Shown here: positions 5,520-39,131 of the stretch, one piece after another
Layout of the letters: each line of letters starts with the position of its first letter
Numbering within the stretch: position 1 is the first letter of the stretch
Assembly (NCBI GenBank): GCA_937861125.1
Contig: CALMAY010000038.1
Location: forward strand, 27,942-91,941
Length of the DNA: 64,000 nt
Direction of reading: 5' to 3'
DNA from: an uncultured bacterium
GTDB lineage: Bacteria > Patescibacteriota > Patescibacteriia > Magasanikbacterales > UBA922
Made by a program: the position numbers and the translations under genes
The notes under the pieces: model-generated
Databases searched by the model: none
The model's input: the letters and a program-made list of their open reading frames with translations, nothing else
What the model was told of the DNA's origin: nothing

Positions 5520-5555
5520 TAAGCCTCCTGAGCATTTTAATCCTTTTAAGCCTTA
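5520..5555. repeat. Short dispersed intergenic motif, copy 1.
   Basis: TAAGCCTCCTGAGCATTTTAATCCTTTTAAGCCTTA; about 27/32 identical to 20413-20444. Confidence 0.45.
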
Positions 5556-10306: not shown

Positions 10307-11761
10307 ATGAGACACACACGATATATTATTGTTGCAATTATCTGTTTTGTTTTGACACTCGTATCACTGGGTGTATATGGTGCATATACAATGATGCGTC
10401 AATTGACACCAGCAGAAGTGCTCAAAAGTGAGACAGCACGCAACTTTATACGCGATAACCTTCCAGAAGATAAAAAAGTGTTTTTTGATTTACTTCCAGA
10501 CTTATTGGGACTTGAGGCACCAAAGACATATCTTGTTTTATTTCAAAACAATACGGAGTTGCGACCTACTGGTGGATTCATTGGATCATTTGCTGTGATA
10601 CGTGTTTACAAAGGATCATTTGAATTGCTTTCCGTACAGGGGACCGAACAACTTGATTGGCGTACACTCCCGTCTACTGCTCAAAAACCACCCCAACCTA
10701 TTTTGGAGTATCTAGATGTGCCATATTGGTATAGTCGTGATGCAAATTGGTCTCCTGATTTTCGTGTGGCAGTGCCAGATATATTGCGTTTGTATACACA
10801 AGAAGATGGGCCGTATGCGGGTGAAATTGATATGGTGGTGGCAATTACTGCGAGTGTACTTGAAGATGTATTGGCGGATATAGGACCGCTTGAGGTAGAG
10901 GGTCAGACATTTACCGCACAAAATGCGATTGATGTATTGCAGTATGATACGTCATTTGGGTATGCCGATCGTAATATTCCTTGGCAAGATAGAAAACGTA
11001 TGATTGATATATTATCTGCTGAGATTATTCAGCGTATTACGGATGATCCGATTGGGTTGGCGCCAAAGTTGGTATCTACATTAAGTGTTCGTGCGCGTGA
11101 GGGACATGTAGTGCTCTATAGTGTTGATGATGTATTACAGTCTCAATTTGAAGCACAACAAATTGCTGGACGCGTGCTGTCATCAGGTGGTGATGCACTG
11201 ATGTGGGTAGATGCTAATCTAGCTGCACTCAAGACAGATCAAGCAATTAAACGTTCGCTCATATATGCATTACATCAAGACAAGAATTCAAAAGAATGGA
11301 TTGGTACAGCAACAATGCACTATGTACATACAAAAGATTTTGATTGGAAGACGACACGGTATTTGACATACGCACGTGTATTTGTGCCGCAAGGTGCGCA
11401 GATCAAACGAGTCTATACAACACTCAATGGAGGGGAGCAAAAAGACGTAGATATGAAGAAAGTTTCAGGAGGCGTTGAATTGGGAAAACAATGGTTTGGG
11501 TATTATTATTTTTTGGAACCAAAACAGACTGGAACGTTGACATTTGAGTATTCTCTTCCAAAACAGGTGATCACAAAACCGTATACACTTTTTGTTCAAA
11601 AGCAACTTGGTACAGAAGCACATGGTTTGACGCTCGACCTACAATTTGATACAAAGATACAGACAGCAACCCCAGGTGAAACAAAAGATAAGTGGGGGGA
11701 TGCTCGATACCAATATACTACCGATCTTCGGGTAAGTAGGGAGGTACAGGTTGGCTTTTAA
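10307..11761 (+). CDS. DUF4012 family protein, membrane-anchored.
   Basis: N-terminal TM helix plus ELRPTGGFIGSFAVI, the signature I recall for DUF4012. Confidence 0.65.
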   Translation: MRHTRYIIVAIICFVLTLVSLGVYGAYTMMRQLTPAEVLKSETARNFIRDNLPEDKKVFFDLLPDLLGLEAPKTYLVLFQNNTELRPTGGFIGSFAVIRVYKGSFELLSVQGTEQLDWRTLPSTAQKPPQPILEYLDVPYWYSRDANWSPDFRVAVPDILRLYTQEDGPYAGEIDMVVAITASVLEDVLADIGPLEVEGQTFTAQNAIDVLQYDTSFGYADRNIPWQDRKRMIDILSAEIIQRITDDPIGLAPKLVSTLSVRAREGHVVLYSVDDVLQSQFEAQQIAGRVLSSGGDALMWVDANLAALKTDQAIKRSLIYALHQDKNSKEWIGTATMHYVHTKDFDWKTTRYLTYARVFVPQGAQIKRVYTTLNGGEQKDVDMKKVSGGVELGKQWFGYYYFLEPKQTGTLTFEYSLPKQVITKPYTLFVQKQLGTEAHGLTLDLQFDTKIQTATPGETKDKWGDARYQYTTDLRVSREVQVGF

Positions 11762-14798: not shown

Positions 14799-15884
14799 TT
14801 GTGTATGCGTCGTTATCTTTTCCTTGCTATCATCTGTGCATTACCACTGTTAGGTGCTGGATGTTTATCTGTTGATAAACAGACCAAGACAACTGGTCCA
14901 GCAGGTATGTTTGTTTCTGCAGATAAAGGGGATAACTGGAAGCAGTCTTCCGCAATGCCCACCCTCAAAGGAGTAACGCAACTTGATGGCGTGAGTGTGT
15001 ATCGTATGTTTGAAGATCCAAGTGATCCAAAAGCACTTTACTGGGCATCTCGAGGTGAGGGATTTTTTTATAGTTATGATGACGGTACGACGTGGCAACA
15101 TGCTAAAGCGCCGTTGAATACTGGGATTGTATACAGTATATCAGTTGATCCGGCAGATACGTGTACGGTGTATGTGACAAATGGTAGTAAGCTATACAAA
15201 ACAACAGATTGTAGTCGTAACTGGACTGAAGTATATCGTGAAGATCGTGATATCGCACGCATTGCAACAGTCTATGTGGATAGAATCAAAAATAATCGTG
15301 TATATTTAGGAAAAGCAAATGGAGAATTGCTTGTTTCAAATGATGGTGGTGCGAGTTGGACAATGTTGAAACAATTTACCAAAAAAGCACGTATTACTCA
15401 TCTCGTGGCTGATTCTGTGGATCCAAAAATATTATATCTTGCCACACTCACTGATGGATTGTATCGATCAGTAGATAGTGGGGAGACGTGGACCCATTTG
15501 ATTGACCCAATTAAAAAGTTTTCAAAAGCAACAAATTTTCGTCGATTGGTCGTACATCCAAAACAACAATCAACCCTCTTTTGGGTTTCTGAATATGGAA
15601 TTCTCAAAACAACAAATGGAGGAGATAGTTGGGAAGGGTTGAAATTAGTTACACCTCCTGGGAGTGTTCCAATCTATGCATTTGGTATGAGTGCTCAAAA
15701 TGAAAAAGAGATGTATTATACGACATTTCAAAATGGCCGTACTACATTTTATAAAACCGATGATGGTGGTCAGTCTTGGAGCACGCGCAAGCTTCCAAGT
15801 GGGCAGATACCTACCTTCTTGCGTGTTCATCCAGAAGATGATAGTATCGTCTTTGTTGGGTTTTCAATTCCACCTAAAAAATAA
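14799..15884 (+). CDS. BNR/Asp-box repeat lipoprotein (sialidase-like beta-propeller; Ycf48-like).
   Basis: Six S-x-D-x-G-x-T/S-W repeats (SADKGDNW, SYDDGTTW, SNDGGASW, SVDSGETW, TNGGDSW, TDDGGQSW); signal peptide with Cys. Confidence 0.7.
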   Translation: MCMRRYLFLAIICALPLLGAGCLSVDKQTKTTGPAGMFVSADKGDNWKQSSAMPTLKGVTQLDGVSVYRMFEDPSDPKALYWASRGEGFFYSYDDGTTWQHAKAPLNTGIVYSISVDPADTCTVYVTNGSKLYKTTDCSRNWTEVYREDRDIARIATVYVDRIKNNRVYLGKANGELLVSNDGGASWTMLKQFTKKARITHLVADSVDPKILYLATLTDGLYRSVDSGETWTHLIDPIKKFSKATNFRRLVVHPKQQSTLFWVSEYGILKTTNGGDSWEGLKLVTPPGSVPIYAFGMSAQNEKEMYYTTFQNGRTTFYKTDDGGQSWSTRKLPSGQIPTFLRVHPEDDSIVFVGFSIPPKK

Positions 15885-28462: not shown

Positions 28463-28890
28463 TACGTACAGTACAAATTTGTTCGTTCATGGTAGGAGTA
28501 TATCTGATAGGGTTGTATTTTACATATATTTATCCTGCGTTTGAGTTGTTTGTTTGGATGAGTCCGCTTATGCATACGTTGGGTGGGCTTGCTACTGCAT
28601 TTACTCTTGATCAGTTCTATCGTCAATGTAGTGTTAGGTGGAAGGTGCGTATTGAACCGGTGGGCGTGTATATGGTGTACCTCATTGCAATGACGGTCTG
28701 TGTGGGGGTGGTGTGGGAGATACATGAGTATCTTCATGATGTGCTCTTTGCTAGTGTTTGGCAACCGGGTATAGGAGATACACTTCTTGATTTGGTGATG
28801 GATACGGTTGGGGCAGTCCTGTATGTACTCTTTTTCTTGACAATAGAGCCTAAAAAGATACAAAAAACAAAAGGGAGAGGTAGGGCTTGA
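28447..28890 (+). CDS. Hypothetical integral membrane protein.
   Basis: Four predicted transmembrane helices; no family motif recognised. Confidence 0.5.
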   Translation: MWNQIIRTVQICSFMVGVYLIGLYFTYIYPAFELFVWMSPLMHTLGGLATAFTLDQFYRQCSVRWKVRIEPVGVYMVYLIAMTVCVGVVWEIHEYLHDVLFASVWQPGIGDTLLDLVMDTVGAVLYVLFFLTIEPKKIQKTKGRGRA

Positions 28891-28915
28891 CAGATAGAGC
28901 TGTTTTTGCTATACT
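28887..28915 (+). promoter_or_regulatory. Sigma-70-type promoter for rpmG.
   Basis: TTGACA, 17-nt spacer, TATACT. Confidence 0.55.
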
Positions 28916-28969
28916 AAGGCACATATTGATTTGATTTTCTCTGTTTAGCTTTTTAATTTTTCCACGTGT

Positions 28970-29125
28970 ATGTCACAAGATAACATGATCAAAATGGAGT
29001 GTACGACTTGCAAAATGCCTCGTTATTTCTCCACAAAAAACAAGAAAAAACTCCGCAATCGTCTCGAGCTCAGTAAATACTGCAAAGTCTGCAAAGCGCA
29101 CGTCTTGCACAAAGAGACAAAGTAA
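28970..29125 (+). CDS. rpmG: 50S ribosomal protein L33 (51 aa; shorter than the ORF-track minimum, so absent from it).
   Basis: [51 protein letters not shown], with the L33 Cys4 pattern (CxxC...CxxC). Confidence 0.85.
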
Positions 29126-29133
29126 GTTACAAT

Positions 29134-29156
29134 AAAATCCCCGAAAGGGGATTTTG
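29134..29156 (+). terminator. Hairpin after rpmG.
   Basis: AAAATCCCC-gaaa-GGGGATTTT. Confidence 0.7.
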
Positions 29157-29184
29157 AATATGGGCTCGTACTGAGCTCGTCGAA

Positions 29185-29258
29185 GGGCGCTTCGTATAAT
29201 GGTAGTACTACGGTCTCCAAAACCGTATGCGTAGGTTCGATTCCTACAGCGCCTGCCA
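29185..29258 (+). tRNA. tRNA-Trp (anticodon CCA).
   Basis: Acceptor GGGCGCT/AGCGCCT, anticodon arm ACGGT-CTCCAAA-ACCGT, T arm GTAGGTTCGATTCCTAC, 3' GCCA. Confidence 0.88.
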
Positions 29259-29263
29259 AAAAC

Positions 29264-29298
29264 AAAAAAGTAGCTTAGTTGCTACTTTTTTGTTTTTT
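29264..29298 (+). terminator. Rho-independent terminator after tRNA-Trp.
   Basis: AAAAAAGTAGC-ttagtt-GCTACTTTTTT. Confidence 0.8.
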
Positions 29299-29559
29299 TG
29301 TCTGAGTATTTGTTGTGGTAGTATAAGTTATTTTTATTCTGTGGTAGGAGGATGTGTACGGACATGATTTTTGGTATATTGGATATAAAATAAGATGAAT
29401 GTAAAACTCTGTATATTTGTATAGGGTTTTTGCTACATGCACAATAAAAAGATAGGATAAGTTATCCACAAAAACATATTGTAAAGTATAAAACTGTGTT
29501 ATACTTCTACAGATAAATAATTTTATTATCCATCTTTGTTTTTAAGATAGCAGTTTTTT

Positions 29560-32500
29560 ATGTACACACCATTTTCTTGGTTGACTGGAGTAAACCCGAG
29601 ACATATTTTGCGCAGTACACTTGTTGTCCTGTCTTTTTTTATTGTGACAGGCGCAGTGTTGTATGCATATCAGCAGGTATTTGCCTTTTCTGGATCAGGA
29701 TCTGGTACTGCGGAAGATCCGTATATTATCATGACCTGTGAACAGCTCGCAGAAGTTGATAATGATTTAGCAGCACACTATCGTTTGGGTGATTATATTG
29801 GGTGTGGTGCTGAAAATTTTCCACTTGCTCGTGTGATGGATGGATCTGATTTGGACGCTGGGTTTGGCGGGTTTACTGGTGTGTTTGATGGAGATGGGTA
29901 TACAATTAGTTATCAAAAAAATGTACCAGCAGAAATCGATGACCAAAATTACCTCGGGTTGTTTGGGTATCTTAATGGTGCAACAATTAGAGATCTACAT
30001 ATTGTAGCTGGGTGGGAACAGGGACCTGGAGGTACTGATGTGTTGTATGGGGGAAGTTTTGTGGGTTCTCTGGCTGGAAAAGCAGTCAATACGCTGATTA
30101 TTAATGTAAGCGCATCAAATAACATCCAGAGTGCAAATACTACTGGAGGGTTGGTCGGACAGATGAACAACTCTCGTATTGTTGGAGGCTCATTTGAAGG
30201 AAGTATTGATGCCACATCACAAAGTGGTGGGTTGGTTGGTGAGGTATCTGGAAATTATGAGGGTGATTTGCCTGCTATAGAACAGTCATACACATTTGGT
30301 TCTTTTACGGCTGGGTGGGGTGTTGGTAATGTTGGAGGATTAGTTGGGTATATGACGACAGCAGAGATACTCAATTCGTATTCACAGATGGATGTAAATG
30401 CATATAACAATGTTGGTGGTTTGGTCGGAAATGCGATTGGGTCTAGTATTGTAAATGCGTATGCGTCAGGGAGTGTAACTGGAAATAACACTGTCGGTGG
30501 TTTGGTTGGAAGAGTATTTTCAAGTGGTTCGAGTATAGAAAATGCATTTGCAGCTGGTATCATTACTGGGTCTAGTTATATTGGAGGTGTGGTTGGTGGT
30601 GTAGGGGATTTTGGAGGTGATAATCCATCTTTTCTTTCTACGACAAACACGTACTGGGATGCAACGATGACTGGTATGAGTGAATGTAGTGGTTTAGCAG
30701 AAGAAACATGGGCTGGGTGTACGATGATTACACCTGGAGATCCGACGACATATTGGAAATTGGGTGGTGTTGAGCCGATGTTAACTTGGAATACTACAGA
30801 CATTTGGAATCTTGATTCCATGTCTAACTATCCTTGGTTATTTGCTTATACTGAACCTACATTTGCTAGTGGTACTGGTGTTGAAGGTGATCCATATGTT
30901 ATTACAAATTGCACACAACTTCAGTTGATGAACACGGTGCTGGATGCACATTTTGTGTTGGGAAGTGATATCGATTGTTTGGAGACAGAAGGGTGGAATG
31001 AAAATACAGCTGAGTGGGTAGATGGGGTGGTGGATGGAGAGTTGATTCCTGATAGTTACAATGATATTCCTGGTGTATATGGGGCAGTATCAAACAATGG
31101 ATACTATGGTTTTGAGCCAATTGGGTCCGACGGAGATCCGTTTACTGGCGTGTTTGATGGAGATGGATATACGATTAATGATTTGTGGATATTTCGAAAA
31201 GAACAAGATAATGTTGGTTTATTTGGCTATACTGCTGGCGCAACAATTGAAGATTTTGATTTAGTTGCAGCAGACATTGTTGGCGAGTCAAATGTGGGTG
31301 GCGTTGTAGGTACCATGGAAGATACGTCGATTTCTGATGTGACTATATTCGATAGTCATGTGCGAGCATATTTGAGTTATTACGGCGGAGGAATTGCCGG
31401 TATTATGATGGAAAATACTGGAACAAGCACTATCTCATATGTGACTATGTCTGGTGGTGGGGTGCATGGAAGTGGAAATATTATTGGTGGTTTGATTGGT
31501 AAAATGTATGATGGTATTCTCACATATGCTAATTCTTCTGCATCGGTGGATGGTGGATTTAGTATCGGTGGTGCGATTGGAGAAATGTCTACTGGTTCAG
31601 TGTCGTATGTTGATATAACGGGGTCAGTTCATTCAGATCGTACTGAAGGTGAATTTATTGCAAAATCTGGTGAAAATACAGGTGGATTTGTTGGATATAT
31701 GTATGAAGGGACTATCACTAGTTCTACTGCGAGCGGTGATGTGGAGTGTGAGGGTGGAAAGTGTGGTGGATTTATCGGATATGCTGCGAGTGGAAACGCG
31801 CTCATTACAAACTCTTCTGCCTCAGGTGATGTGACTGTTGTTGATGGGTTTTCACCGTCATACATTGGCGGATTTGCTGGGTATGTGGAAAACAGTGGAT
31901 ATAATTGGGAGGATCCGTATGTATATGGCGTTGAATGGGTAAATCTGTCTGCTGCTGGTTCTGTCTTTGCAACCTCTTCTGATTCTGTAGGTGGTTTTGC
32001 TGGGCGTGTCTACGGATATGATCTTTCTTCTGTATCTTCGACAGGTGGTGTGGTAATAGGTGATAGTTATGTCGGTGGTTTTGTTGGTGAGATATTTAAC
32101 TCCTCTGTGTCGTCGAGCACTGCTTCTTCTACTGTTACAGGTATGGATAACTATATTGGTGGCTTTGCTGGTTATTCAGGTTGTCAGAGTCGGTTTACTC
32201 GGTCACAAGCTTTTGGAGATGTGTTTGGTGCTGCTGCGGTAGGTGGTTTTTCTGGCGCAGATGGATGTGAGGGGTATGGATCGACGTTTACAGAGGTGTA
32301 TACAACAGGTGATGTGGTTGCGTCTGTAGTTGCAGCTGGAGGTTTGATCGGAGAAGCATATTTAACTACAGTAGAGCGCTCGTATGCGTTGGGAAATGTT
32401 ACTGCGACAGGAGATAATGTGGGTGGATTGATTGGACAAATGATTGGGTATGATGGGTATGAACATTCGTCTGTGACAGATTCATACGCTCGAGGGAATG

Positions 32501-34527
32501 TTGAATCAACCTCAGGGGTTCAGGTCGGTGGTTTGGTTGGGTATATTGGTGCATATACTGATATGGTCAATGTGTATGCGACAGGTGTCGCATCTGGTAC
32601 GACTGCTGTTGGAGGTCTTTATGGCGGTGGAGACGTTTCCACTGCAGCATTTTGGGATATTGAGACATCTGGTCTTTCTGCGGGGTGTGGATATGGATGT
32701 GACGACACTGCTGTAGGGACAAGCACTGAGCGTATGAAGACACAATCGATGTATACAGATGCTGGCTGGGATTTTGAAACAGTGTGGACATTTGAGGGGG
32801 CAAACATAGTAAATGATGGGTACCCAATTTTACAATTTCAAACAGTAGGAGAAGATACTGAAACATTGACTCCTGAATTACTTTCACCGGAGGATGGTTC
32901 TTCTCACGATGTAGATGCAGAGATGGATATCACTTTTGTGCTTCCTGAGACACCGTTGTCAAATAGTATTACTATTGCATTCTTACCAGAAGTGGGTGAT
33001 CCAATAGTGCTACAGTTGCGTGATGCTGCGCCTGAGGTGGAAAACACCTTTACGATTATACCAAATCAGAATCTTTCTTTGGTTGAAGAGGTGCTTTCTG
33101 CTTCGACAAGCACTATTCCAACTGGTACATATACAATATTACTCGCATACCAAGATGTATTTGGAAACCCTGTTGCTACTGATAGTGTTTCAGAAGTGTT
33201 ATTATACGAATTTCCTGAGTTAGTTATGGGTGAGACAACTGGTATCGGACAGACACAGGCGACGTTGAATGCAAGTGTTGTCGATGGTTCTGTGGAATTG
33301 TTTAGTGAGTATGCATTGTATGGATTTATCGTGAGTGAAAATTCAGATCCAACAGTTGAAAATGCGGTTGCAATACCTGGTCCTGTCGTTATCGAAGAGT
33401 TGGGTTCATATGAATGGATTTTTGGGGATGACGATGGTGAGGTGCTTGAGTGTGGTACGACGTACTATGTGCGTGCACTCGGAGTGTTGATGTATGGTGA
33501 AACTCTCTTGACGAGTGAAAATGTAGATTCGTTTACAACACTTGATTGTGATGAAGAAGAAGGAGAAGAAGAGCCACGTCCTCGTTCTGGTGGTGGGTCT
33601 TCTGTCTCTATTTCTCGTCCTCGTCCAACAGACAACACGACAGCAACTACTGGGGCACTCGTTATCAATAATGGTGATGAGACTACAACAAGTAGAACTG
33701 TTTCTTTGAAAATTAATGCAACAAATGCAGTAGAGATGGCAATCAGTAATAGTCCGCTATTTAGCGATAGTACGTATATCCCATTTACTTCTTCTGCAAA
33801 GCATACACTTAGTGCTGGTGAGGGGCAAAAAACAGTGTATGTAAAGCTTCGTTCTGCTACCGGTGGTACTCTTCTGGTTTTAGATTCGATTCAGTTGTCT
33901 AATGTGGTGAATAAAAAACCATCTGACATTGTTCCTTTAGTACTAACCACCCCAATCCCACAAAACGGCCTCCAATGCACTACTAACCTTGTTCTCACTA
34001 CTCCAGTCAAACTCGGAGCCCCCAACAATCCAAACGACGTCAAACTCCTCGAGCAGTTCCTCAATACCTATGAAGGCACTAACCTCCCAGTCAATGGAAT
34101 ATATGAAACAGCAGACTTCAACGCAGTAGTGAAGTGGCAAGAGAAATATGCCTCTGACATCCTCACTCCATGGGGACTCACCAAAGGCTCAGGATATGTC
34201 TACACCACATCTTTGAAAAAAATCAAAGAGATCCACGAAAAGAACTGTGCAACAGCAGGAACGACACCAGTGCAACCAACCACACCAGTATCAGCAAGTT
34301 GTCTCAACACACAAACAACCCTGACACAAGGTATGACAGGAGCACTCGTTACCACCGCACAAACACTCCTCCAAAAACTCAACTACTTCACTGTCACACC
34401 AACCGGCTTCTTTGGCCCAGTCACCACCGCCTCAGTCAAAGCCTTCCAAAGTGCAAACGGCATTGACCCTGTCGGCTACATCGGACCAGCAACCAGAGCC
34501 AAGCTTAATGAGTTGGGGTGTCGGTAG
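29560..34527 (+). CDS. Giant (1655 aa) surface protein with GGLVG (GLUG-like) repeats. Layout: N-terminal membrane anchor, two PYxIxxCxQL + FTGVFDGDGYTI modules, long arrays of xGGLVG/IGGFAG repeats, an Ig-like domain, a Thr/Pro linker, and two C-terminal peptidoglycan-binding (PG_binding_1-like) domains.
   Basis: More than 30 recurrences of GG[LFI][VIA]G at roughly 20-residue spacing. C-terminal LLQKLNYF...GFFGPVTTASVKAFQSANGIDPVGYIGPATRAKL matches the PG-binding consensus, with a second copy just upstream. Confidence 0.85.
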   Translation: MYTPFSWLTGVNPRHILRSTLVVLSFFIVTGAVLYAYQQVFAFSGSGSGTAEDPYIIMTCEQLAEVDNDLAAHYRLGDYIGCGAENFPLARVMDGSDLDAGFGGFTGVFDGDGYTISYQKNVPAEIDDQNYLGLFGYLNGATIRDLHIVAGWEQGPGGTDVLYGGSFVGSLAGKAVNTLIINVSASNNIQSANTTGGLVGQMNNSRIVGGSFEGSIDATSQSGGLVGEVSGNYEGDLPAIEQSYTFGSFTAGWGVGNVGGLVGYMTTAEILNSYSQMDVNAYNNVGGLVGNAIGSSIVNAYASGSVTGNNTVGGLVGRVFSSGSSIENAFAAGIITGSSYIGGVVGGVGDFGGDNPSFLSTTNTYWDATMTGMSECSGLAEETWAGCTMITPGDPTTYWKLGGVEPMLTWNTTDIWNLDSMSNYPWLFAYTEPTFASGTGVEGDPYVITNCTQLQLMNTVLDAHFVLGSDIDCLETEGWNENTAEWVDGVVDGELIPDSYNDIPGVYGAVSNNGYYGFEPIGSDGDPFTGVFDGDGYTINDLWIFRKEQDNVGLFGYTAGATIEDFDLVAADIVGESNVGGVVGTMEDTSISDVTIFDSHVRAYLSYYGGGIAGIMMENTGTSTISYVTMSGGGVHGSGNIIGGLIGKMYDGILTYANSSASVDGGFSIGGAIGEMSTGSVSYVDITGSVHSDRTEGEFIAKSGENTGGFVGYMYEGTITSSTASGDVECEGGKCGGFIGYAASGNALITNSSASGDVTVVDGFSPSYIGGFAGYVENSGYNWEDPYVYGVEWVNLSAAGSVFATSSDSVGGFAGRVYGYDLSSVSSTGGVVIGDSYVGGFVGEIFNSSVSSSTASSTVTGMDNYIGGFAGYSGCQSRFTRSQAFGDVFGAAAVGGFSGADGCEGYGSTFTEVYTTGDVVASVVAAGGLIGEAYLTTVERSYALGNVTATGDNVGGLIGQMIGYDGYEHSSVTDSYARGNVESTSGVQVGGLVGYIGAYTDMVNVYATGVASGTTAVGGLYGGGDVSTAAFWDIETSGLSAGCGYGCDDTAVGTSTERMKTQSMYTDAGWDFETVWTFEGANIVNDGYPILQFQTVGEDTETLTPELLSPEDGSSHDVDAEMDITFVLPETPLSNSITIAFLPEVGDPIVLQLRDAAPEVENTFTIIPNQNLSLVEEVLSASTSTIPTGTYTILLAYQDVFGNPVATDSVSEVLLYEFPELVMGETTGIGQTQATLNASVVDGSVELFSEYALYGFIVSENSDPTVENAVAIPGPVVIEELGSYEWIFGDDDGEVLECGTTYYVRALGVLMYGETLLTSENVDSFTTLDCDEEEGEEEPRPRSGGGSSVSISRPRPTDNTTATTGALVINNGDETTTSRTVSLKINATNAVEMAISNSPLFSDSTYIPFTSSAKHTLSAGEGQKTVYVKLRSATGGTLLVLDSIQLSNVVNKKPSDIVPLVLTTPIPQNGLQCTTNLVLTTPVKLGAPNNPNDVKLLEQFLNTYEGTNLPVNGIYETADFNAVVKWQEKYASDILTPWGLTKGSGYVYTTSLKKIKEIHEKNCATAGTTPVQPTTPVSASCLNTQTTLTQGMTGALVTTAQTLLQKLNYFTVTPTGFFGPVTTASVKAFQSANGIDPVGYIGPATRAKLNELGCR

Positions 34528-34546
34528 AAATGTTTTTGATAAAATA

Positions 34547-34580
34547 CAAAAACAGCCTTGAAAAGCTGTTTTTGTTTTTA
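34547..34580. terminator. Bidirectional terminator between the giant gene and the ABC-F gene.
   Basis: AACAGC-cttgaaaa-GCTGTT with flanking A and T tracts. Confidence 0.75.
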
Positions 34581-36377
34581 TTATATACGTCCATATTTTG
34601 CTTCCAAATCACCGAGCTTTTCTTGCACTCCAAACCATTGTGACTCTTTTTCTTTGAGGAGGAGCTCTACTATCTGGAGTTGCTTTGTTTTTTCAATTGA
34701 GTACTTACCGGGATGTTTGAGAAACCATTTATGAATACTATGTTGTTCTTTTTCTAGGTCAGCAACTTCTTCTTCAATATCACGTAACAACTTTTTCTGT
34801 TCTTTAATCTCCTCCTTGAGTCGTGGGCGTTCATCATCTGATGCGAGAGCTGGAATTGTTTTTTCTGGAATAGCTGGTCGTCGATTGCGACCGATGATAT
34901 CACCGAGGTGATAGACATACTCCTCGTATGAGTGGTGATAGCGTTTTACAGATCCATCATTTACCTCAATGATACCTGTGGCTATTTTTTCTACAAAGGC
35001 ACGATTGTGACTGATGAGTAATATGGTACGATTGGTTTCGTGAAGTGCTTGGGCGAGCGACTCTACTGTTTCAAAATCAAGATGGTTGGTCGGTTCATCC
35101 AGTAGTAGAACCTGATCTTTTCCAAGCATTAACCCAGCGAGACACAGGCGTGCTCTCTCACCTCCACTAAGTACTGACAAGGGTTTTTCGATGTCTCCTG
35201 CACGGAACAAAAAATTTCCAGCAATTTCAAGTACATCTTGTGTGCTTCGATGAATACTTCCGGCTCGTTCGAGATATCCAAGGACTGTATCAAACGGATT
35301 GAGCTGATCAGTCATGTGCTGAGCATAGTAGCCAATAGAAACAGTTGGGTGCCATGTGGCGGTGCCAGAGAGTGGGAGGAGGTCTTTGGCGAGTGTACGT
35401 AGGAGTGTTGTTTTGCCTTGTCCGTTGTCTCCGACAATGGCGACATGTTCACCGCGGTGGATTTCAAACGTGATATCACTTGCCACAGGTGACTCTTTGG
35501 TATATCCCATACTGAGTTCTTCTGTTCGCAGTACAATTCCTTTTTTATTTTCACAATTTGGGACGTGTATACGGGTGGTGTGTAGTGGTGCTTCGATTTC
35601 AATTGTTTTGAGTTTTTCAAGATATTTCATCTTTGATTGTGCTTGTGTTGCTTTGCTTGCTTTGGCACGGAAACGGTCGATAAATTCTTGGACATGAGCA
35701 CGTTCTTTCTCAACTTTTTTATTATATTTTTTTTGCATTTCAAGTTGCGCTTTTTTGTATTCTAGATATGCATCAATTTGTCCGGGGTATGAATACGCTC
35801 TACCACGCTCAATATCAAGTGTCTCGGTACAGACATCACGCAAGAATGCGCGATCGTGTGAGATGAGGAGAAAGCTGCCAGTGTATTGTTTCAAAAAATC
35901 TCCTAAAAGCAAGATAGTAGAGAGGTCGAGAAAGTTTGTTGGCTCGTCGAGTAAGAGGACGTTGGGATCTTGGAGCAGCATGCCAACAAGTTTGATACGC
36001 ATACGATACCCCCCAGAGAGGTTTTTGAGTTGGGAGTTGAGATGTGTTTCGTTCAGTTCAAATTTATGTGCGAGTTTGGCCGCCTGCCATGATTCTTTTT
36101 TAGATGTGCGTATTAGATAGGAGAGGGCTGTTTCACTCAGATCCATGTCGTCGTGCTGTGCGATGTGTCCGAGTCGAGCACTGTTGTGAAGTTGTACTGT
36201 CCCGCTATCAGCTTCTTCTTGTCCGAGAATGATGCGAAAGAGGGTTGATTTTCCTGCACCATTTCTCCCGATTACACCGATTTTCTGACGTTCAGAGACG
36301 GTAAAGGTCGCTCCCATGAGGATAGGGCGTTCGCCATAGCTTTTTTGAATGTCATTGACGGCGAGAAGAAGTGCCAT
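34581..36377 (-). CDS. ABC-F family ATPase (two ABC domains; Uup/EttA/YheS-like).
   Basis: Two Walker A (GRNGAGKST, GDNGQGKTT), two signatures (LSGGYRMR, LSGGERAR), inter-domain linker, C-terminal coiled coil, no transmembrane domain. Start placed at MALLLAVNDIQ. Confidence 0.85.
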   Translation of the reverse strand: MALLLAVNDIQKSYGERPILMGATFTVSERQKIGVIGRNGAGKSTLFRIILGQEEADSGTVQLHNSARLGHIAQHDDMDLSETALSYLIRTSKKESWQAAKLAHKFELNETHLNSQLKNLSGGYRMRIKLVGMLLQDPNVLLLDEPTNFLDLSTILLLGDFLKQYTGSFLLISHDRAFLRDVCTETLDIERGRAYSYPGQIDAYLEYKKAQLEMQKKYNKKVEKERAHVQEFIDRFRAKASKATQAQSKMKYLEKLKTIEIEAPLHTTRIHVPNCENKKGIVLRTEELSMGYTKESPVASDITFEIHRGEHVAIVGDNGQGKTTLLRTLAKDLLPLSGTATWHPTVSIGYYAQHMTDQLNPFDTVLGYLERAGSIHRSTQDVLEIAGNFLFRAGDIEKPLSVLSGGERARLCLAGLMLGKDQVLLLDEPTNHLDFETVESLAQALHETNRTILLISHNRAFVEKIATGIIEVNDGSVKRYHHSYEEYVYHLGDIIGRNRRPAIPEKTIPALASDDERPRLKEEIKEQKKLLRDIEEEVADLEKEQHSIHKWFLKHPGKYSIEKTKQLQIVELLLKEKESQWFGVQEKLGDLEAKYGRI

Positions 36378-36503
36378 ATTTTTGCCTATATTAACAGAAA
36401 AAGAGTGTTTCGTAAAGATTACTATGTTATCCACAGGGGGGTACGAAGAGCTGGTTTTGTGTGGTATACTATATACATATTTATTTATCTATATTTTTTA
36501 TAT

Positions 36504-36941
36504 ATGAAACAGTTTGCATGTTTATTCTTGCTTGGCGGTGTATTGTTAGCTTCACCTGCACTTGCGGTTGATGAAACATCGTCCTCTACAACACCAGTAA
36601 CTGAAACAGCATCTGGTTTGGAATGTATTCAAGATGCAATTGAAACAAGAGATACTGCACTTATTGATGCATTGAGTTCATATCACGCTGCTGCAAAAAC
36701 AGCATTAGAGACACGTATCGCTGAATTAAAATCTGCGTGGGAGCAACCAAAAGGGACATATCGTAAAGCTGATATTAAAGATGTGTGGACTGAGTATCGA
36801 ATAGATCTTCGAAATGCACGAAAAGAGTTTAAATTAGATAAAAAAGTAGCGTGGGATGTATTTAAAAAGGCTAAAGCTGCATGTAAGGGTGTGCAGGTTT
36901 CGGATGATACTGGCAATTCAGCCGCAGATACAACATTATAA
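36504..36941 (+). CDS. Secreted hypothetical protein with signal peptide.
   Basis: MKQFACLFLLGGVLLASPALA signal peptide followed by a helical Lys/Glu-rich domain. Confidence 0.5.
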   Translation: MKQFACLFLLGGVLLASPALAVDETSSSTTPVTETASGLECIQDAIETRDTALIDALSSYHAAAKTALETRIAELKSAWEQPKGTYRKADIKDVWTEYRIDLRNARKEFKLDKKVAWDVFKKAKAACKGVQVSDDTGNSAADTTL

Positions 36942-37023
36942 TATTTGTACTAAAAGACATCCCTGTAATTCTGGGATGTCTTTTAATTTTATGGTATACT
37001 ATCTGTACTATTGTCCATGTATT

Positions 37024-38379
37024 ATGTCACAAAAAAAAGCATATATTGTTGCAGTCGATATGGGGTACGGTCATCAGCGTGCTGTTCATCCGTTGTTTGA
37101 CATCTCTCGTGCTCCAAAAGGATGGGATCATGATTCTGCGATGATTATCTGTGCAAATAAATATCCAGGTATACCTGAGATTGATTTTAAACGATGGAAT
37201 GGAAGCCAGGGGGTGTATGAATTGATTTCACGCATGAAACGTCTGCCAATTGTTGGTGATTGGATTTTTGGTGCTATGGATTATTTTCAGCGGATTGAGG
37301 TGTTTTATCCCAAACGTGATCTGAGTAAGCCAACTATACAGTTGAGTCAGATTTATAACATGATCAAAAAAGGGTGGGGAAGACACTTGATTGATGAGCT
37401 GAATCGTGACCCACTTCCACTTATTACCTCTTTTTTTATCCCAGCATTTTTTGCGGAAGAGCATGGGTACAAGGGTGAGATATATTGTCTGTGTACCGAT
37501 ACGGATGTTTCTCGTGCTTGGGCACCGCTGCATCCGCAAAAGAGTCGTATCACTTATTTAGCTCCAAATAAGCGTGTTCGAGAACGTCTCAAGCTTTATG
37601 GTGTACGTCCAGAAAAGATTTTTATTACAGGCTTTCCGTTGCCAAAAGAAAATATTGGTTCACCTGATACTGTTAAAACACTCAAGACATCACTTGGGTG
37701 CCGTATAGGCAATCTCGATCCACATGGTCGGTACCAAAAGAAATACCAGCAAATGCTTCAGTTTTACCTTGGTTCGCCATTTTGTGATTTGCGGGCCAAG
37801 CATCCGTTTACTATTACCTTTGCAGTAGGAGGTGCGGGGGCACAGCGAGAAGTGGGAATCGAGATTTTGCAAAGTTTGCGGACGCACATTGATGCTGGTG
37901 CTGTGAGGCTTAATCTTGTTGCCGGATCTCGCGCTGATGTGTTTAGTTTTTATGAAGCAGAAATTAAACGTTTGGGCTTGGATCATCGTCATGATCAAAC
38001 AGTTCGTATTATTTATGATGAAGATAAGTTCCGTTATTTTCAAAAATTTGATGAAGCATTACTCACCACAGACGTGCTGTGGACCAAACCAAGTGAATTG
38101 TCATTTTACGCTGGGCTAGGACTTCCGATCATTATTGCCCCAACGATCGGTTCTCAAGAAGAGTATAATAAAGCTTGGTTACACGCAATTGGTGCTGGGT
38201 TTGAGCAAAACGATTCACGATATACTCATGAGTGGTTATTTGATTGGCTAGAGAGCGGTTGGCTCGCAGAGGCTGCGATGAGTGGATTTTTACATGCACC
38301 GAGAAATGGGGCGTATCATATTGCGGATATTGTACTCAACGGCAAGAAGAGTGAAATTGAAGATGTGCATTTGTTGTAG
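37024..38379 (+). CDS. GT-B glycosyltransferase, MGDG-synthase/UgtP-like (GT28-like N-terminus).
   Basis: AYIVAVDMGYGHQRA resembles the G-x-GH-x-x-A motif at the N-terminus of GT28/MGDG-synthase-type enzymes. Confidence 0.5.
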   Translation: MSQKKAYIVAVDMGYGHQRAVHPLFDISRAPKGWDHDSAMIICANKYPGIPEIDFKRWNGSQGVYELISRMKRLPIVGDWIFGAMDYFQRIEVFYPKRDLSKPTIQLSQIYNMIKKGWGRHLIDELNRDPLPLITSFFIPAFFAEEHGYKGEIYCLCTDTDVSRAWAPLHPQKSRITYLAPNKRVRERLKLYGVRPEKIFITGFPLPKENIGSPDTVKTLKTSLGCRIGNLDPHGRYQKKYQQMLQFYLGSPFCDLRAKHPFTITFAVGGAGAQREVGIEILQSLRTHIDAGAVRLNLVAGSRADVFSFYEAEIKRLGLDHRHDQTVRIIYDEDKFRYFQKFDEALLTTDVLWTKPSELSFYAGLGLPIIIAPTIGSQEEYNKAWLHAIGAGFEQNDSRYTHEWLFDWLESGWLAEAAMSGFLHAPRNGAYHIADIVLNGKKSEIEDVHLL

Positions 38380-38381
38380 AT

Positions 38382-39131
38382 ATGACTTCTTTCGCACTTA
38401 TTCCATTTGCATTTCTCTCTGGTATCCTCATGTTTTTGGCACCTTGTTCATTACCACTTGTTCCAGGGTATTTGGCATTTTTGTCTGGCAATACTGATTT
38501 GCGTATGTGGAATGAACGGACTGTTCGATGGCGGATGGTGCGTCAAGCATGTTTTGTCTCGCTTGGATTTGGTGGTGTATTTATTTTTTTGGGTGTTTTG
38601 TTTGGGCTTGGTGGTGTCGTATTATTGCCATATCGAGAGGTGCTGAGTCGCGTTGGTGGTGTACTAATTATGTTGTTTGGTCTTGCACTGCTGGGAGTGT
38701 TTTCTCTGCCATCATTTTCTTTTGTTTCACGTCTAGTTGCATACAAACAGATACATCCAAACACACCAGGTGCTGCTATATTATTTGGAGGTATTTTGGC
38801 GCTCGGATGGTCGCCATGTGTCGGGCCTATTTTGGGGACTATTTTGTTGCTGGCTGCATCTAGCGCAACGGTTGTTTCTGGCGGCTTCCTTTTGGCTGTT
38901 TTTTCTCTTGGGTTTAGTGTGCCGTTTATTCTCACTGCATTTGGCGCTGGGCATATATCACAATGGTTACAGAGATTCAGCAGTGTACAGAGGGTGCTTA
39001 CGGTTATCGGTGGCATGAGTTTGATCGTCATGGGGTATCTCATGGCTACGAACATGATGGGAGTGTGGAATGGTTTTTTTTATGGATTGTTTGATTTTAT
39101 GTCGTACGATTCATTATTACGTTTTTATTAG
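38382..39131 (+). CDS. ccdA: Cytochrome c-type biogenesis / thiol-disulfide transporter, CcdA/DsbD-core family.
   Basis: APCSLPLVPGYL (first Cys in TM1) and WSPCVGPILG (second Cys); six transmembrane helices. Confidence 0.8.
   Translation: MTSFALIPFAFLSGILMFLAPCSLPLVPGYLAFLSGNTDLRMWNERTVRWRMVRQACFVSLGFGGVFIFLGVLFGLGGVVLLPYREVLSRVGGVLIMLFGLALLGVFSLPSFSFVSRLVAYKQIHPNTPGAAILFGGILALGWSPCVGPILGTILLLAASSATVVSGGFLLAVFSLGFSVPFILTAFGAGHISQWLQRFSSVQRVLTVIGGMSLIVMGYLMATNMMGVWNGFFYGLFDFMSYDSLLRFY

What the first reader, a model, noticed from the sequence alone, without database searches (positions are those of the whole stretch)
29560..34527. 1655-aa GGLVG-repeat (GLUG-like) surface protein with two C-terminal peptidoglycan-binding domains
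This is by far the largest gene in the window. It has an N-terminal membrane or signal anchor, then two modules of the form (D/E)PY-I-x-CxQL...L..DIDC plus FTGVFDGDGYTI. After these come more than 30 degenerate repeats of about 20 residues centred on GG[LFI][VIA]G (GLUG-motif-like), consistent with a parallel beta-helix. A beta-sandwich-like segment with the G-x-G-x-KTVYVK-x-R motif follows, then a Thr/Pro linker, then two PG_binding_1-type domains. The gene sits behind a long AT-rich leader and has its own strong terminator. In a reduced, probably host-associated (CPR-like) genome, a peptidoglycan-anchored fibre of this size is a prime candidate for host-cell attachment or a surface-layer component.
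Basis: partly seen in the sequence, partly recalled or inferred. Interest (0 to 1): 0.6.

Follow-up and report, generated by a model that had tools for sequence, protein, structure and literature searches.

The report
Wall-anchored beta-helix surface protein
This is a real, intact gene for a large secreted surface protein of a Patescibacteria (CPR) bacterium: two GLUG-type beta-helices on a stalk of three Ig-like domains, held to the cell wall by two C-terminal peptidoglycan-binding domains. It is an ordinary member of a widespread family of surface proteins, although it evolves fast.

Summary

- There are about 21 repeats of 27-28 aa, not more than 30 of about 20 aa.
- The N-terminus looks like a cleavable signal peptide (VFA|FSG).
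- The terminator is shared with the convergent ABC-F gene.

The same C-terminal cassette ends proteins with unrelated passengers, in about 2,900 clusters at 50% identity. That fits a generic wall anchor. In a related genome the same tRNA-Trp/ABC-F locus holds two tandem GLUG genes. The passenger diverges about ten times faster (dN 0.41-0.45) than the flanking genes (0.04-0.06).

Best reading: a secreted, self-wall-anchored adhesin-like fibre. It is a new member of a known kind. Binding to a host or partner cell is inferred, not shown.

The parts
29185..29258 (+). tRNA-Trp (CCA). It marks the upstream boundary of the variable surface-protein locus.
   Evidence: ARAGORN and Rfam. The rpmG and tRNA-Trp region is nearly identical to the related genome L004, and similarity collapses immediately 3' of the tRNA.
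29259..29559 (+). AT-rich, non-conserved leader. It includes a hairpin after the tRNA (about 29265-29290) and a possible extended -10 promoter (TTGTAA-15 nt-TGtTATACT, about 29479-29505). No clear Shine-Dalgarno sequence.
   Evidence: Read directly. The consensus scan did not list a promoter here because the spacer is 15 nt, so the promoter is tentative. The leader is not conserved in L004.
29560..34527 (+). Complete gene for a 1655-aa GLUG beta-helix / PG-binding surface protein. The mature protein is about 168 kDa with pI about 4.05.
   Evidence: The identical protein is on 11 contigs, and the two loci fetched are from ENA assemblies ERZ724532 and ERZ724552.
29560..29685 (+). Signal peptide, aa 1-42. 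It has a basic n-region (R14, R18) and an h-region at aa 19-37. The predicted signal peptidase I site is VFA|FSG.
   Evidence: This is the only hydrophobic segment. Homologues with other passengers all end their N-terminal hydrophobic segment in an AxA-like motif just before the mature domain: AFA|FSG, IFA|FSG, THA|FAG, VSA|DG, VYA|DA, VHA|DN. Cleavage itself is inferred.
29686..30855 (+). Beta-helix module 1, aa 43-432. It has an N-cap (DPYxIxxCxQL...C, C60/C82), a degenerate coil, 6 GLUG coils (aa 182-355) and a C-cap (YWDATMTG...NYPWL, C376/C387).
   Evidence: Pfam GLUG, repeat HMM, AF2 solenoid of short strands with pLDDT mostly 80-90, 53% identity to ortholog P0002.
30856..32841 (+). Beta-helix module 2, aa 433-1094. 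The N-cap carries a conserved insertion of about 30 aa (WNENTAEWVDGVVDGELIPDSY...NNGYYGFEPIG). It has 15 GLUG coils (aa 566-1031) and a C-cap (FWDIETSG...WDFETVW...DGYPILQFQ).
   Evidence: Foldseek top hits are 3n6z and the IgA1-protease beta-helix domains. It is 41-51% identical to nine homologues, and its N-terminal third is the most conserved part.
32842..33207 (+). Beta-sandwich (Ig/Fn3-like) domain 1, aa 1095-1216.
33217..33537 (+). Beta-sandwich domain 2, aa 1220-1326 (TTYYVRA motif, C1298/C1330).
   Evidence: AF2 pLDDT 60-85. No Pfam family. Present in P0242 and P0037.
33559..33639 (+). Acidic, Gly/Ser-rich disordered linker, aa 1334-1360.
   Evidence: pLDDT below 50.
33643..33897 (+). 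Beta-sandwich domain 3, aa 1362-1446, with the GEGQKTVYVKLR motif.
   Evidence: AF2 pLDDT about 85-95. No Pfam family. Conserved in P0002 and P0242-P0245.
33976..34248 (+). PG-binding domain A, aa 1473-1563. It is a divergent 91-aa PG_binding_1-like module bracketed by C1473 and C1563, with an 8-aa insertion.
   Evidence: 14 of 14 homologous modules hit PF01471 below threshold. HHalign against canonical PG_binding_1 gives 94.3%, E 9.7e-8. Helical model with pLDDT above 90. 2,918 clusters match at E<=1e-10.
34249..34299 (+). Thr/Pro-rich linker, aa 1564-1580.
   Evidence: pLDDT below 50 for aa 1568-1578.
34300..34524 (+). PG-binding domain B, aa 1581-1655. It is a canonical PG_binding_1 domain bracketed by C1581 and C1654. 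The A+B cassette has pI 8.66.
34546..34575 (.). Bidirectional intrinsic terminator hairpin between the gene and the convergent ABC-F gene (34581..36434, -).
   Evidence: (11-13 bp stem, T-runs on both strands).

Best explanation
The gene encodes a Sec-exported, acidic, disulfide-containing surface fibre of about 168 kDa from a Patescibacteria bacterium related to Magasanikbacteria.

Proposed mechanism:
1. The 42-aa signal peptide is cleaved (inferred).
2. The basic C-terminal cassette of two PG_binding_1-type domains binds the cell's own peptidoglycan non-covalently (inferred from homology and architecture).
3. Flexible Pro/Thr/Gly linkers and three Ig/Fn3-like sandwiches act as a stalk.
4. 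Two stacked GLUG right-handed beta-helices are displayed distally as a non-enzymatic interaction surface. The most likely role is adhesion to a partner or host cell surface or to a polymer.

The passenger is a fast-evolving, domain-shuffled part of a variable locus bounded by tRNA-Trp and an ABC-F gene. The anchor cassette and the signal peptide are conserved.

Shown: the ORF, the domain families, the predicted folds, the modular reuse of the cassette, and the locus variability. Inferred: signal-peptide cleavage, binding to the cell's own wall, and adhesion.
For: - The ORF is real and reproducible.
- GLUG and PG_binding_1 are above the Pfam thresholds.
- AF2 gives a beta-solenoid for aa 43-1104 (pLDDT 78.5, pTM 0.63). 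Its best solved matches are the GLUG proteins 3n6z, 7uvl and 6xja, followed by adhesin/autotransporter and tailspike beta-helices.
- Domain A is homologous to PG_binding_1.
- The layout, signal peptide then functional head then Ig-like stalk then flexible linker then C-terminal wall-binding domain, is that of Gram-positive wall-associated adhesins (established knowledge).
- The passenger has pI about 4.05 and the cassette pI 8.66.
- The 18 Cys fall into 9 sequential near-neighbour pairs, two of which bracket the two PG-binding domains. A DsbD/CcdA gene lies 4 kb away.
- The same cassette ends proteins with C-type lectin, beta-propeller, Laminin_G and NosD passengers, and proteins of up to 6588 aa. 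In 52 of 62 listed large proteins, module A sits 81-130 aa from the C-terminus.
- Across phyla, the GLUG passenger is paired with lineage-specific surface anchors: the T9SS C-terminal domain, PGF-CTERM, SLH and dockerin.
- The organism makes its own wall: MurJ, MreB and BacA are in the window.
- Passenger dN is 0.41-0.45. Flanking genes are at 0.04-0.06, the cassette at 0.10 and the signal peptide at 0.08.
- The related genome has two tandem GLUG genes at the same locus.
- Highly expressed extracellular proteins with PG-binding domains have been reported in other Patescibacteria (PMC10936435).
Against: - No experimental or expression data exist for this protein.
- No ligand is known for any GLUG beta-helix. 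In the only mechanistically studied case, the IgA1 protease, the beta-helix is a gate for a catalytic domain and not an adhesin (PMC7695701).
- The 19-residue h-region is long for a signal peptide, so an uncleaved signal-anchor is not excluded.
- PG_binding_1 domains could bind foreign (host) peptidoglycan rather than the cell's own wall.
- The AF2 alignments were shallow (14-20 sequences), and model coordinates could not be inspected, so the disulfide pairing is unverified.
- dS is near saturation (0.8-1.9), so the rate ratios are rough.
Confidence: 0.6

Rival explanations
1. Host-grappling orientation. The N-terminal hydrophobic segment is an uncleaved membrane anchor, and the C-terminal PG-binding cassette at the far end of the fibre docks onto the peptidoglycan (or pseudomurein-like wall) of a host cell. 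This would tether the epibiont to its host.
For: - The h-region of about 19 residues is compatible with a transmembrane anchor.
- PG-binding-domain proteins of Patescibacteria have been proposed to take part in host attachment (PMC10936435).
- The signal-peptide region is unusually conserved between orthologs: 86% amino-acid identity and dN 0.08.
Against: - Homologues with unrelated passengers all carry AxA-type cleavage motifs directly before the mature domain.
- The cassette also ends small proteins of about 330 aa and proteins of every size. That fits a generic retention tag better than a host-binding tip.
- The organism has its own peptidoglycan machinery.
- The fast-evolving part is the beta-helix and not the cassette. 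That is the opposite of what is expected if the cassette were the host-specificity determinant.
Confidence: 0.15
2. Structural envelope or S-layer-like component. The protein is an abundant wall-bound coat protein, and the beta-helices tile or shield the surface rather than bind a specific partner.
For: - Large, acidic, secreted and non-covalently wall-anchored, with its own transcription unit and terminator.
- Rapid divergence and gene-number variation are also typical of S-layer and coat genes.
Against: - No SLH or other S-layer family hit.
- The multidomain stalk-plus-head fibre with long disordered linkers is not typical of lattice-forming proteins.
- The related genome carries two quite different genes at the locus.
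- There are no abundance data.
Confidence: 0.12
3. Wall-bound enzyme. One of the beta-helices is a polysaccharide lyase/hydrolase or protease-associated domain that degrades host or environmental polymers.
For: - Foldseek lists PL6 alginate lyases, AlgG, tailspike depolymerases and pectate lyase among weaker matches.
- PG_binding_1 domains are usually attached to wall-active enzymes.
- Ortholog P0002 carries additional NosD/Beta_helix domains.
Against: - These fold matches are weak (E>=5e-4, probability mostly <=0.6, 8-12% identity) and reflect the generic beta-helix fold.
- There is no catalytic family hit in Pfam, NCBIfam or PHROGs, no HExxH motif and no Peptidase_M26_C.
- The NosD/Beta_helix insert of P0002 is absent here.
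Confidence: 0.08
4. Assembly artefact or pseudogene in a repeat-rich region.
For: Repeat-rich genes can be misassembled (general knowledge).
Against: - The identical 1655-aa product is on 11 contigs, and the two loci fetched are from different ENA assemblies.
- The DNA repeats are short and degenerate, at most 43 nt at 88% identity.
- The reading frame is open, and the domain order is colinear with homologues from end to end.
Confidence: 0.02

Closest known systems
GLUG motif-containing proteins (Pfam PF07581), for example Bacteroides ovatus BACOVA_03286 (PDB 3n6z) and the many T9SS-, PGF-CTERM-, SLH- or dockerin-tagged GLUG proteins
   Same: Repeats of 27-28 aa centred on GG[LFI]xG. The same N-cap (DPYxIxxxxQL...DIDC...FxGxFDGxGxxI) and C-cap (FWDxxTSG...WDFxxVW...YP). 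Right-handed beta-helix fold. Large secreted proteins with a C-terminal surface-anchoring module.
   Different: The anchor here is a tandem PG_binding_1-type cassette. There are two beta-helix modules in series, and module 2 carries a conserved insertion of about 30 aa in its N-cap that the nine homologues aligned share.
N-terminal beta-helix domain of Gram-positive M26 IgA1 metalloproteases (S. pneumoniae ZmpA/IgA1P, PDB 6xja/6xjb; G. haemolysans 7uvk/7uvl)
   Same: The beta-helix fold and GLUG-type sequence. Foldseek probability 1.0, 15-22% identity. NCBIfam gives a ZmpA partial hit and Pfam a weak Peptidase_M26_N hit.
   Different: No M26 catalytic middle or C-terminal domains, no HExxH motif, no G5 domain and no LPXTG motif. 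In IgA1P the helix gates a protease active site (PMC7695701). Here there is no enzyme to gate.
Gram-positive wall-associated beta-helical or Ig-stalk adhesins (for example S. pneumoniae PfbA, PDB 4mr0; MSCRAMM-type proteins)
   Same: Signal peptide, distal binding head, stalk and C-terminal wall attachment. PfbA appears among the fold matches.
   Different: Attachment is non-covalent through PG-binding domains rather than through sortase and LPXTG. The sequence similarity is only that of the generic beta-helix fold (7% identity).
Highly expressed extracellular proteins with PG-binding domains of Patescibacteria that parasitise methanogens (Kuroda et al., mBio 2024, PMC10936435)
   Same: Patescibacteria. 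Secreted proteins that combine PG-binding domains with Ig-like folds. Proposed surface or host-attachment role.
   Different: Those are from Paceibacteria (Yanofskyibacterium, Minisyncoccus), and I did not compare the sequences. The passages I searched in that paper contain no occurrence of 'beta-helix'.
Autotransporter and two-partner-secretion passengers (Hbp, Ag43, TibA, SepA, FHA)
   Same: A long right-handed beta-helix displayed on the cell surface as an adhesin scaffold.
   Different: No beta-barrel translocator or TPS domain. The export route is different (Sec only, monoderm-type envelope). The fold matches are weak (E>=0.02).

Membership tests
GLUG motif-containing protein (PF07581) | Multiple matches to the 28-aa GLUG profile above the gathering score | tested here: met
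   92.7 bits against a cutoff of 20.5, in 11 stretches. My own HMM finds 21 units of 27-28 aa.
GLUG motif-containing protein (PF07581) | Right-handed parallel beta-helix like the solved GLUG domains (3n6z, IgA1P NTD) | tested here: met
   The AF2 model (pLDDT 78.5) has as best Foldseek hits 3n6z (E 1.6e-6) and 7uvl/7uvk/6xja/6xjb, at probability 1.0. This rests on a predicted structure, not a solved one.
PG_binding_1 (PF01471) | Domain B (aa 1581-1655) matches the profile above the gathering score and has the three-helix fold | tested here: met
PG_binding_1 (PF01471) | Domain A (aa 1473-1563) matches the profile above the gathering score | tested here: not met
   14.8 bits against 23 (E 0.033), covering profile positions 3-41 of 57. 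Homology at superfamily level is nonetheless supported: HHalign gives 94.3% probability and E 9.7e-8 against canonical domains, and 14 of 14 homologous modules give sub-threshold hits.
PG_binding_1 (PF01471) | Actual binding to peptidoglycan | not testable with these tools
   This needs a pull-down of the recombinant cassette with purified sacculi.
M26 IgA1-specific metalloprotease (ZmpA/B/C) | Catalytic domain (Peptidase_M26_C) with an HExxH zinc site | tested here: not met
   No PF07580 hit at E<=1. No HExxH motif anywhere. The NCBIfam ZmpA hit scores only 25 bits against a 3000 cutoff and covers the beta-helix part only.
Sortase-anchored (LPXTG) surface protein | C-terminal LPXTG motif, hydrophobic segment and basic tail | tested here: not met
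   No LPx[TSA]G motif and no C-terminal hydrophobic segment.
Type V secretion passenger (autotransporter / TPS) | Beta-barrel translocator domain or TPS secretion domain | tested here: not met
   The whole-protein Pfam scan at E<=1 returns only Glug, PG_binding_1, Peptidase_M26_N (weak) and PG_binding_5 (weak).
S-layer protein | SLH or another S-layer anchoring or lattice domain | tested here: not met
   No SLH (PF00395) hit here, although some GLUG homologues carry it.
S-layer protein | High abundance and self-assembly into a lattice | not testable with these tools
   This needs proteomics and cryo-ET.
Beta-helix carbohydrate-active enzymes (PL6, pectate lyase, tailspike depolymerases; Pfam Beta_helix/NosD) | Match to Beta_helix (PF13229) or NosD (PF05048), or to a catalytic family | tested here: not met
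   No such Pfam hit in this protein. Only weak fold similarity: probability 0.1-0.6 and 8-12% identity. PHROGs hits are limited to the PG-binding domain.
Sec signal peptide (SPase I substrate) | n-h-c organisation with small residues at positions -3 and -1 | tested here: inconclusive
   R14 and R18, h-region aa 19-37, VFA|F at positions 40-43. The equivalent AxA motifs are conserved in 10 homologues. No dedicated predictor was available, and the h-region is long.

The most novel reading that the evidence does not exclude
The Cys-bracketed PG_binding_1 variant (domain A) is not recognised by Pfam. Together with a canonical domain B it may form a lineage-wide C-terminal retention tag that defines much of the surface proteome of these ultrasmall bacteria. 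It occurs in about 2,900 clusters at 50% identity, on proteins of 93 to 6,588 aa with unrelated passengers. Under this reading, the tRNA-Trp-flanked locus is a shuffling hotspot where passenger modules are swapped onto the constant signal peptide and anchor, so the locus acts as a host-range or partner-specificity determinant. In the boldest version, the cassette docks onto the wall of the host rather than the producer.
Probability: 0.15. Interest if true: 0.6.

Novelty: new member of a known kind. Interest (0 to 1): 0.3.

Why it matters
If the reading is right, this gene is one of the few obvious candidates for how a Magasanikbacteria-like CPR cell touches its surroundings. That makes it a reasonable target for surface proteomics, antibody or FISH-tag localisation, and host-range comparisons.

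Two by-products are more generally useful:
1. A divergent PG-binding module that Pfam misses marks thousands of secreted proteins, so it could improve annotation of CPR surface proteomes.
2. The passenger evolves about ten times faster than its anchor and its neighbours, and gene content differs between related genomes. This is the signature expected of a surface molecule under diversifying pressure.

None of this changes the basic picture. Large GLUG beta-helix proteins with lineage-specific anchors are common and are already named in the databases.

Tried and rejected
- A genome-contig scan with the whole protein found only a distant Pirellulales GLUG protein (27% identity, L003). It found neither the source genome nor close relatives, so taxonomy had to come from DnaK hits.
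- The listing of cluster members gave no organism names, either for this protein or for ten cassette-bearing proteins. The taxonomic range of the cassette therefore stays unverified.
- The afdb50 fold library was unavailable.
- Literature searches for 'GLUG' with 'beta-helix' and for 'GLUG' with 'Patescibacteria' returned nothing. 'GLUG motif' returned two papers that only note an unknown function or possible adhesion.
- tblastn of the N-terminal, middle and C-terminal parts against the window found no paralog.
- The three beta-sandwich domains scanned on their own have no Pfam family, even at E<=1.
- Phage origin or tail-spike idea: PHROGs matches only the PG-binding domain (to endolysins), and the neighbours are housekeeping genes. 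Rejected.
- IgA1-protease idea: there is no catalytic domain or HExxH motif. Rejected.
- Polymorphic toxin or contact-dependent inhibition idea: there is no C-terminal toxin domain. The EndoU-containing giant gene near the related locus has no counterpart in the window. Rejected.
- Positive selection: pairwise dN/dS is 0.2-0.35 for the passenger, so it is not above 1 overall, and dS is saturated. Only 'accelerated' can be claimed.
Full report
**Observation**

It is the largest ORF in the window; the next largest is 730 aa.

The region upstream is not just a leader:
- a strong sigma-70-like promoter at 28887-28915;
- a 46-aa ribosomal protein L33 gene at 28985-29125;
- tRNA-Trp at 29185-29258, followed by a hairpin;
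- about 300 nt of AT-rich sequence before the ATG.

Downstream, the hairpin at 34546-34575 is a bidirectional terminator shared with a convergent ABC-F ATPase gene.

The gene is not an assembly artefact:
- The identical 1655-aa product is recorded on 11 contigs, and the two loci fetched come from different ENA assemblies, ERZ724532 and ERZ724552.
- The internal DNA repeats are short and degenerate, at most 43 nt at 88% identity.

**Family assignments**

Pfam gives GLUG (PF07581; E 5.7e-27, 92.7 bits against a 20.5 cutoff, 11 stretches). It also gives PG_binding_1 (PF01471; E 5.7e-16) at aa 1594-1649. Weak Peptidase_M26_N and PG_binding_5 hits complete the list. NCBIfam adds only partial hits that reflect the same two elements.

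The strict GG[LFI]xG motif occurs 22 times. A repeat HMM built from these finds 21 clear units of 27-28 aa: 6 at aa 182-355 and 15 at aa 566-1031. The 81-84 nt DNA spacing agrees. Both 'DPYxIxxCxQL...C...FTGVFDGDGYTI' heads are present, at aa 52-116 and 443-540.

**Predicted structure**

AlphaFold2 on aa 43-1104 (14-sequence alignment; mean pLDDT 78.5, pTM 0.63) gives an almost uninterrupted series of short strands. Low confidence is confined to the junction between modules and a few loops. Foldseek against the PDB ranks the hits as follows:
- first, the Bacteroides ovatus 'putative IgA1 protease' BACOVA_03286 (3n6z, E 1.6e-6);
- then the beta-helix N-terminal domains of Gram-positive IgA1 metalloproteases (7uvl, 7uvk, 6xja, 6xjb; probability 1.0);
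- then, weakly, PL6 lyases, tailspikes, autotransporter passengers and the adhesin PfbA.

The parallel beta-helix prediction is therefore supported, as two helices in series.

AlphaFold2 on aa 1095-1655 (20-sequence alignment; mean pLDDT 80.6) gives this layout:
- three beta-sandwiches at aa 1095-1216, 1220-1326 and 1362-1446, the last carrying GEGQKTVYVKLR;
- disordered linkers at aa 1334-1360, 1449-1467 and 1568-1578;
- two helical domains at aa 1473-1566 and 1581-1655, both with pLDDT above 90.

**The first PG-binding domain**

Domain A (aa 1473-1563) is a 91-aa module that starts and ends with a cysteine. On its own it scores below the Pfam threshold (14.8 bits against 23). All 14 homologous modules examined give sub-threshold PG_binding_1 hits, the best at 6.9e-6. 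A profile-profile comparison with canonical domains gives 94.3% probability and E 9.7e-8 over 71 columns, with an 8-residue insertion. Domain B is likewise bracketed by C1581 and C1654.

All 18 cysteines of the protein fall into nine sequential near-neighbour pairs. That suggests an extracytoplasmic disulfide-bonded protein, but I could not inspect the coordinates. A DsbD/CcdA-type gene lies at 38382-39131.

**Organism and context**

The best named hits of the window's DnaK, at 75-79% identity, are nearly all Candidatus Magasanikbacteria, with one Nomurabacteria and one unclassified Patescibacteria. The 'CPR-like' guess is therefore supported. MurJ, MreB and BacA are in the window, so the cell makes its own peptidoglycan. 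The neighbours are housekeeping genes, and there is no paralog in the window.

**Comparative evidence**

*1. GLUG passengers pair with lineage-specific anchors.* Among 1,782 significant homologues, the GLUG passenger is combined with T9SS C-terminal domains, PGF-CTERM, SLH, dockerin or PG_binding_1. The C-terminal module therefore looks interchangeable and serves surface retention.

*2. The C-terminal cassette is reused on unrelated passengers.* A search with the C-terminal 561 aa finds the same cassette on proteins whose passengers are C-type lectins, beta-propellers, Laminin_G or NosD beta-helices, and on small proteins of about 330 aa. A profile of domain A matches 2,918 representatives of 50%-identity clusters at E<=1e-10, in proteins from 93 to 6,588 aa. 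In 52 of 62 listed proteins of at least 600 aa, domain A lies 81-130 residues from the C-terminus, which leaves room for one further domain. In 6 it is terminal. P0374, at 1658 aa, shares nothing but the cassette. Several cassette-bearing proteins have no Pfam annotation for it.

*3. The locus varies between related genomes.* In a related genome (JGI contig Ga0654431_0000035) the same interval, from DUF2238-rpmG-tRNA-Trp to the convergent ABC-F gene, holds two tandem GLUG genes, P0004 (1352 aa) and P0002 (2571 aa). Nucleotide similarity is near-perfect through rpmG and tRNA-Trp and collapses right after the tRNA. Most flanking proteins are 87-94% identical. The beta-helix region is only 50% identical to P0002. 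Sandwich 1 resembles P0004 and not P0002. The cassette is 71-85% identical.

| Region | dN |
|---|---|
| Beta-helices | 0.41-0.45 |
| FtsX, AP endonuclease, ABC-F, DsbD, EamA | 0.04-0.06 |
| Cassette | 0.10 |
| Signal peptide | 0.08 |

dS is about 0.8-1.9 throughout and is near saturation. The passenger is fast-evolving and domain-shuffled, while the export and anchoring ends are conserved. Within module 2 the N-terminal third (aa 430-730) is the most conserved part across distant homologues. It includes an N-cap insertion of about 30 aa.

**Mechanism**

The N-terminus has a basic n-region, one hydrophobic stretch (aa 16-37) and VFA|FSG. Ten homologues, including ones with unrelated passengers, end their hydrophobic segment in an AxA-type motif directly before the mature domain. 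I therefore read it as a cleavable Sec signal peptide. This is inferred, because no predictor was available. The passenger is strongly acidic (pI about 4.05) and the cassette is basic (pI 8.66).

The order of parts is signal peptide, head, Ig-like stalk, flexible linker, C-terminal wall-binding domains. This is the layout of wall-associated adhesins of monoderm bacteria (established knowledge), except that attachment is non-covalent: there is no LPXTG motif. No catalytic family, HExxH motif or toxin domain is present.

The most likely mechanism is thus a secreted fibre held on the producer's own wall by the A+B cassette, with two GLUG beta-helices displayed distally as a binding surface. Which ligand it binds is unknown. 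The only mechanistically studied GLUG helix is a gate in IgA1 protease (PMC7695701). Elsewhere GLUG proteins are only suggested to be adhesins (PMC9723798). Highly expressed extracellular proteins with PG-binding domains have been reported in other Patescibacteria and proposed to take part in host attachment (PMC10936435).

**Rivals**

| Rival | Confidence | Main argument against |
|---|---|---|
| Reversed orientation: uncleaved N-terminal anchor, cassette docking onto host wall | 0.15 | Conserved cleavage motifs; generic distribution and slow evolution of the cassette |
| Coat or S-layer role | 0.12 | Nothing specific supports it, though it is not excluded |
| Enzymatic beta-helix | 0.08 | Only weak generic fold matches |
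| Assembly artefact | 0.02 | Identical product in the two assemblies fetched |

**Verdict**

The structural interpretation is supported. The functional interpretation (host attachment or S-layer) remains inference. The protein is a new member of a known kind, the GLUG-motif beta-helix surface proteins with a lineage-specific anchor.

The parts worth keeping are:
- the Pfam-invisible, Cys-bracketed PG-binding module that tags thousands of secreted proteins;
- the evidence that this tRNA-Trp-adjacent locus is a rapidly changing surface-protein site.

Interest is modest, at 0.3.

Noticed in passing
window 28887-29290: A near-consensus promoter (TTGACA-17-TATACT with TG) drives a 46-aa ribosomal protein L33 gene (28985-29125) and tRNA-Trp (29185-29258). 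This block is almost identical in the related genome L004, and similarity collapses immediately 3' of the tRNA. The tRNA therefore marks the edge of a variable region.
   Followed up: partly
L004 5906-17716 (related genome, JGI Ga0654431_0000035): The syntenic locus holds two tandem GLUG genes (1352 aa and 2571 aa, 36 nt apart) instead of one. The window's protein looks like a mosaic: the beta-helices resemble the second gene, sandwich 1 and the cassette are closer to the first, and the 1100-aa NosD/Beta_helix/MAM-like insert is absent.
   Followed up: partly
window 30988-31104 (aa 477-515 of the protein): An insertion of about 30 aa in the N-cap of beta-helix module 2 (WNENTAEWVDGVVDGELIPDSY...NNGYYGFEPIG) is strongly conserved in the nine homologues aligned. 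AlphaFold models it with pLDDT below 50. It is a possible functional loop or ligand site.
   Followed up: no
window 38382-39131 (+) and 36856-38379 (+): A DsbD/CcdA-type membrane thiol-disulfide transporter gene and a DUF6938 gene lie 2-4 kb downstream, conserved in synteny with the related genome. They may be relevant to the nine putative disulfide pairs of the surface protein.
   Followed up: no
window 30001-32000: GC skew jumps to 0.39, against about 0.1-0.2 elsewhere. This is probably a compositional consequence of the Gly-rich (GGN) GLUG repeats and not a replication signal.
   Followed up: no
window 5553-7745 (-), 8804-10300 (+), 53571-55127 (+): Three sizeable ORFs (730, 498 and 518 aa) have no Pfam or NCBIfam family at the thresholds used. 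The neighbouring ORF at 10307-11761 is a DUF4012 protein.
   Followed up: no
L004 25780-27716 (related genome): A protein of more than 1598 aa with Transglut_core, LGFP and EndoU toxin domains sits downstream of the shared Aa_trans gene in the related genome. It has no counterpart anywhere in the window (tblastn), so this is a second point of gene-content variation.
   Followed up: partly
window 34581-36434 (-) and 36345-36941 (+): The mechanical ABC-F ORF (617 aa, GTG start) overlaps the next ORF by about 90 nt. One assembly's gene call for the same gene is 598 aa, so the true start is probably internal.
   Followed up: no
window 14799-15884 (+): A 361-aa BNR/Sortilin-Vps10-type beta-propeller protein. 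A similar propeller is fused to a GLUG module and PG-binding domains in homologue P0019.
   Followed up: no
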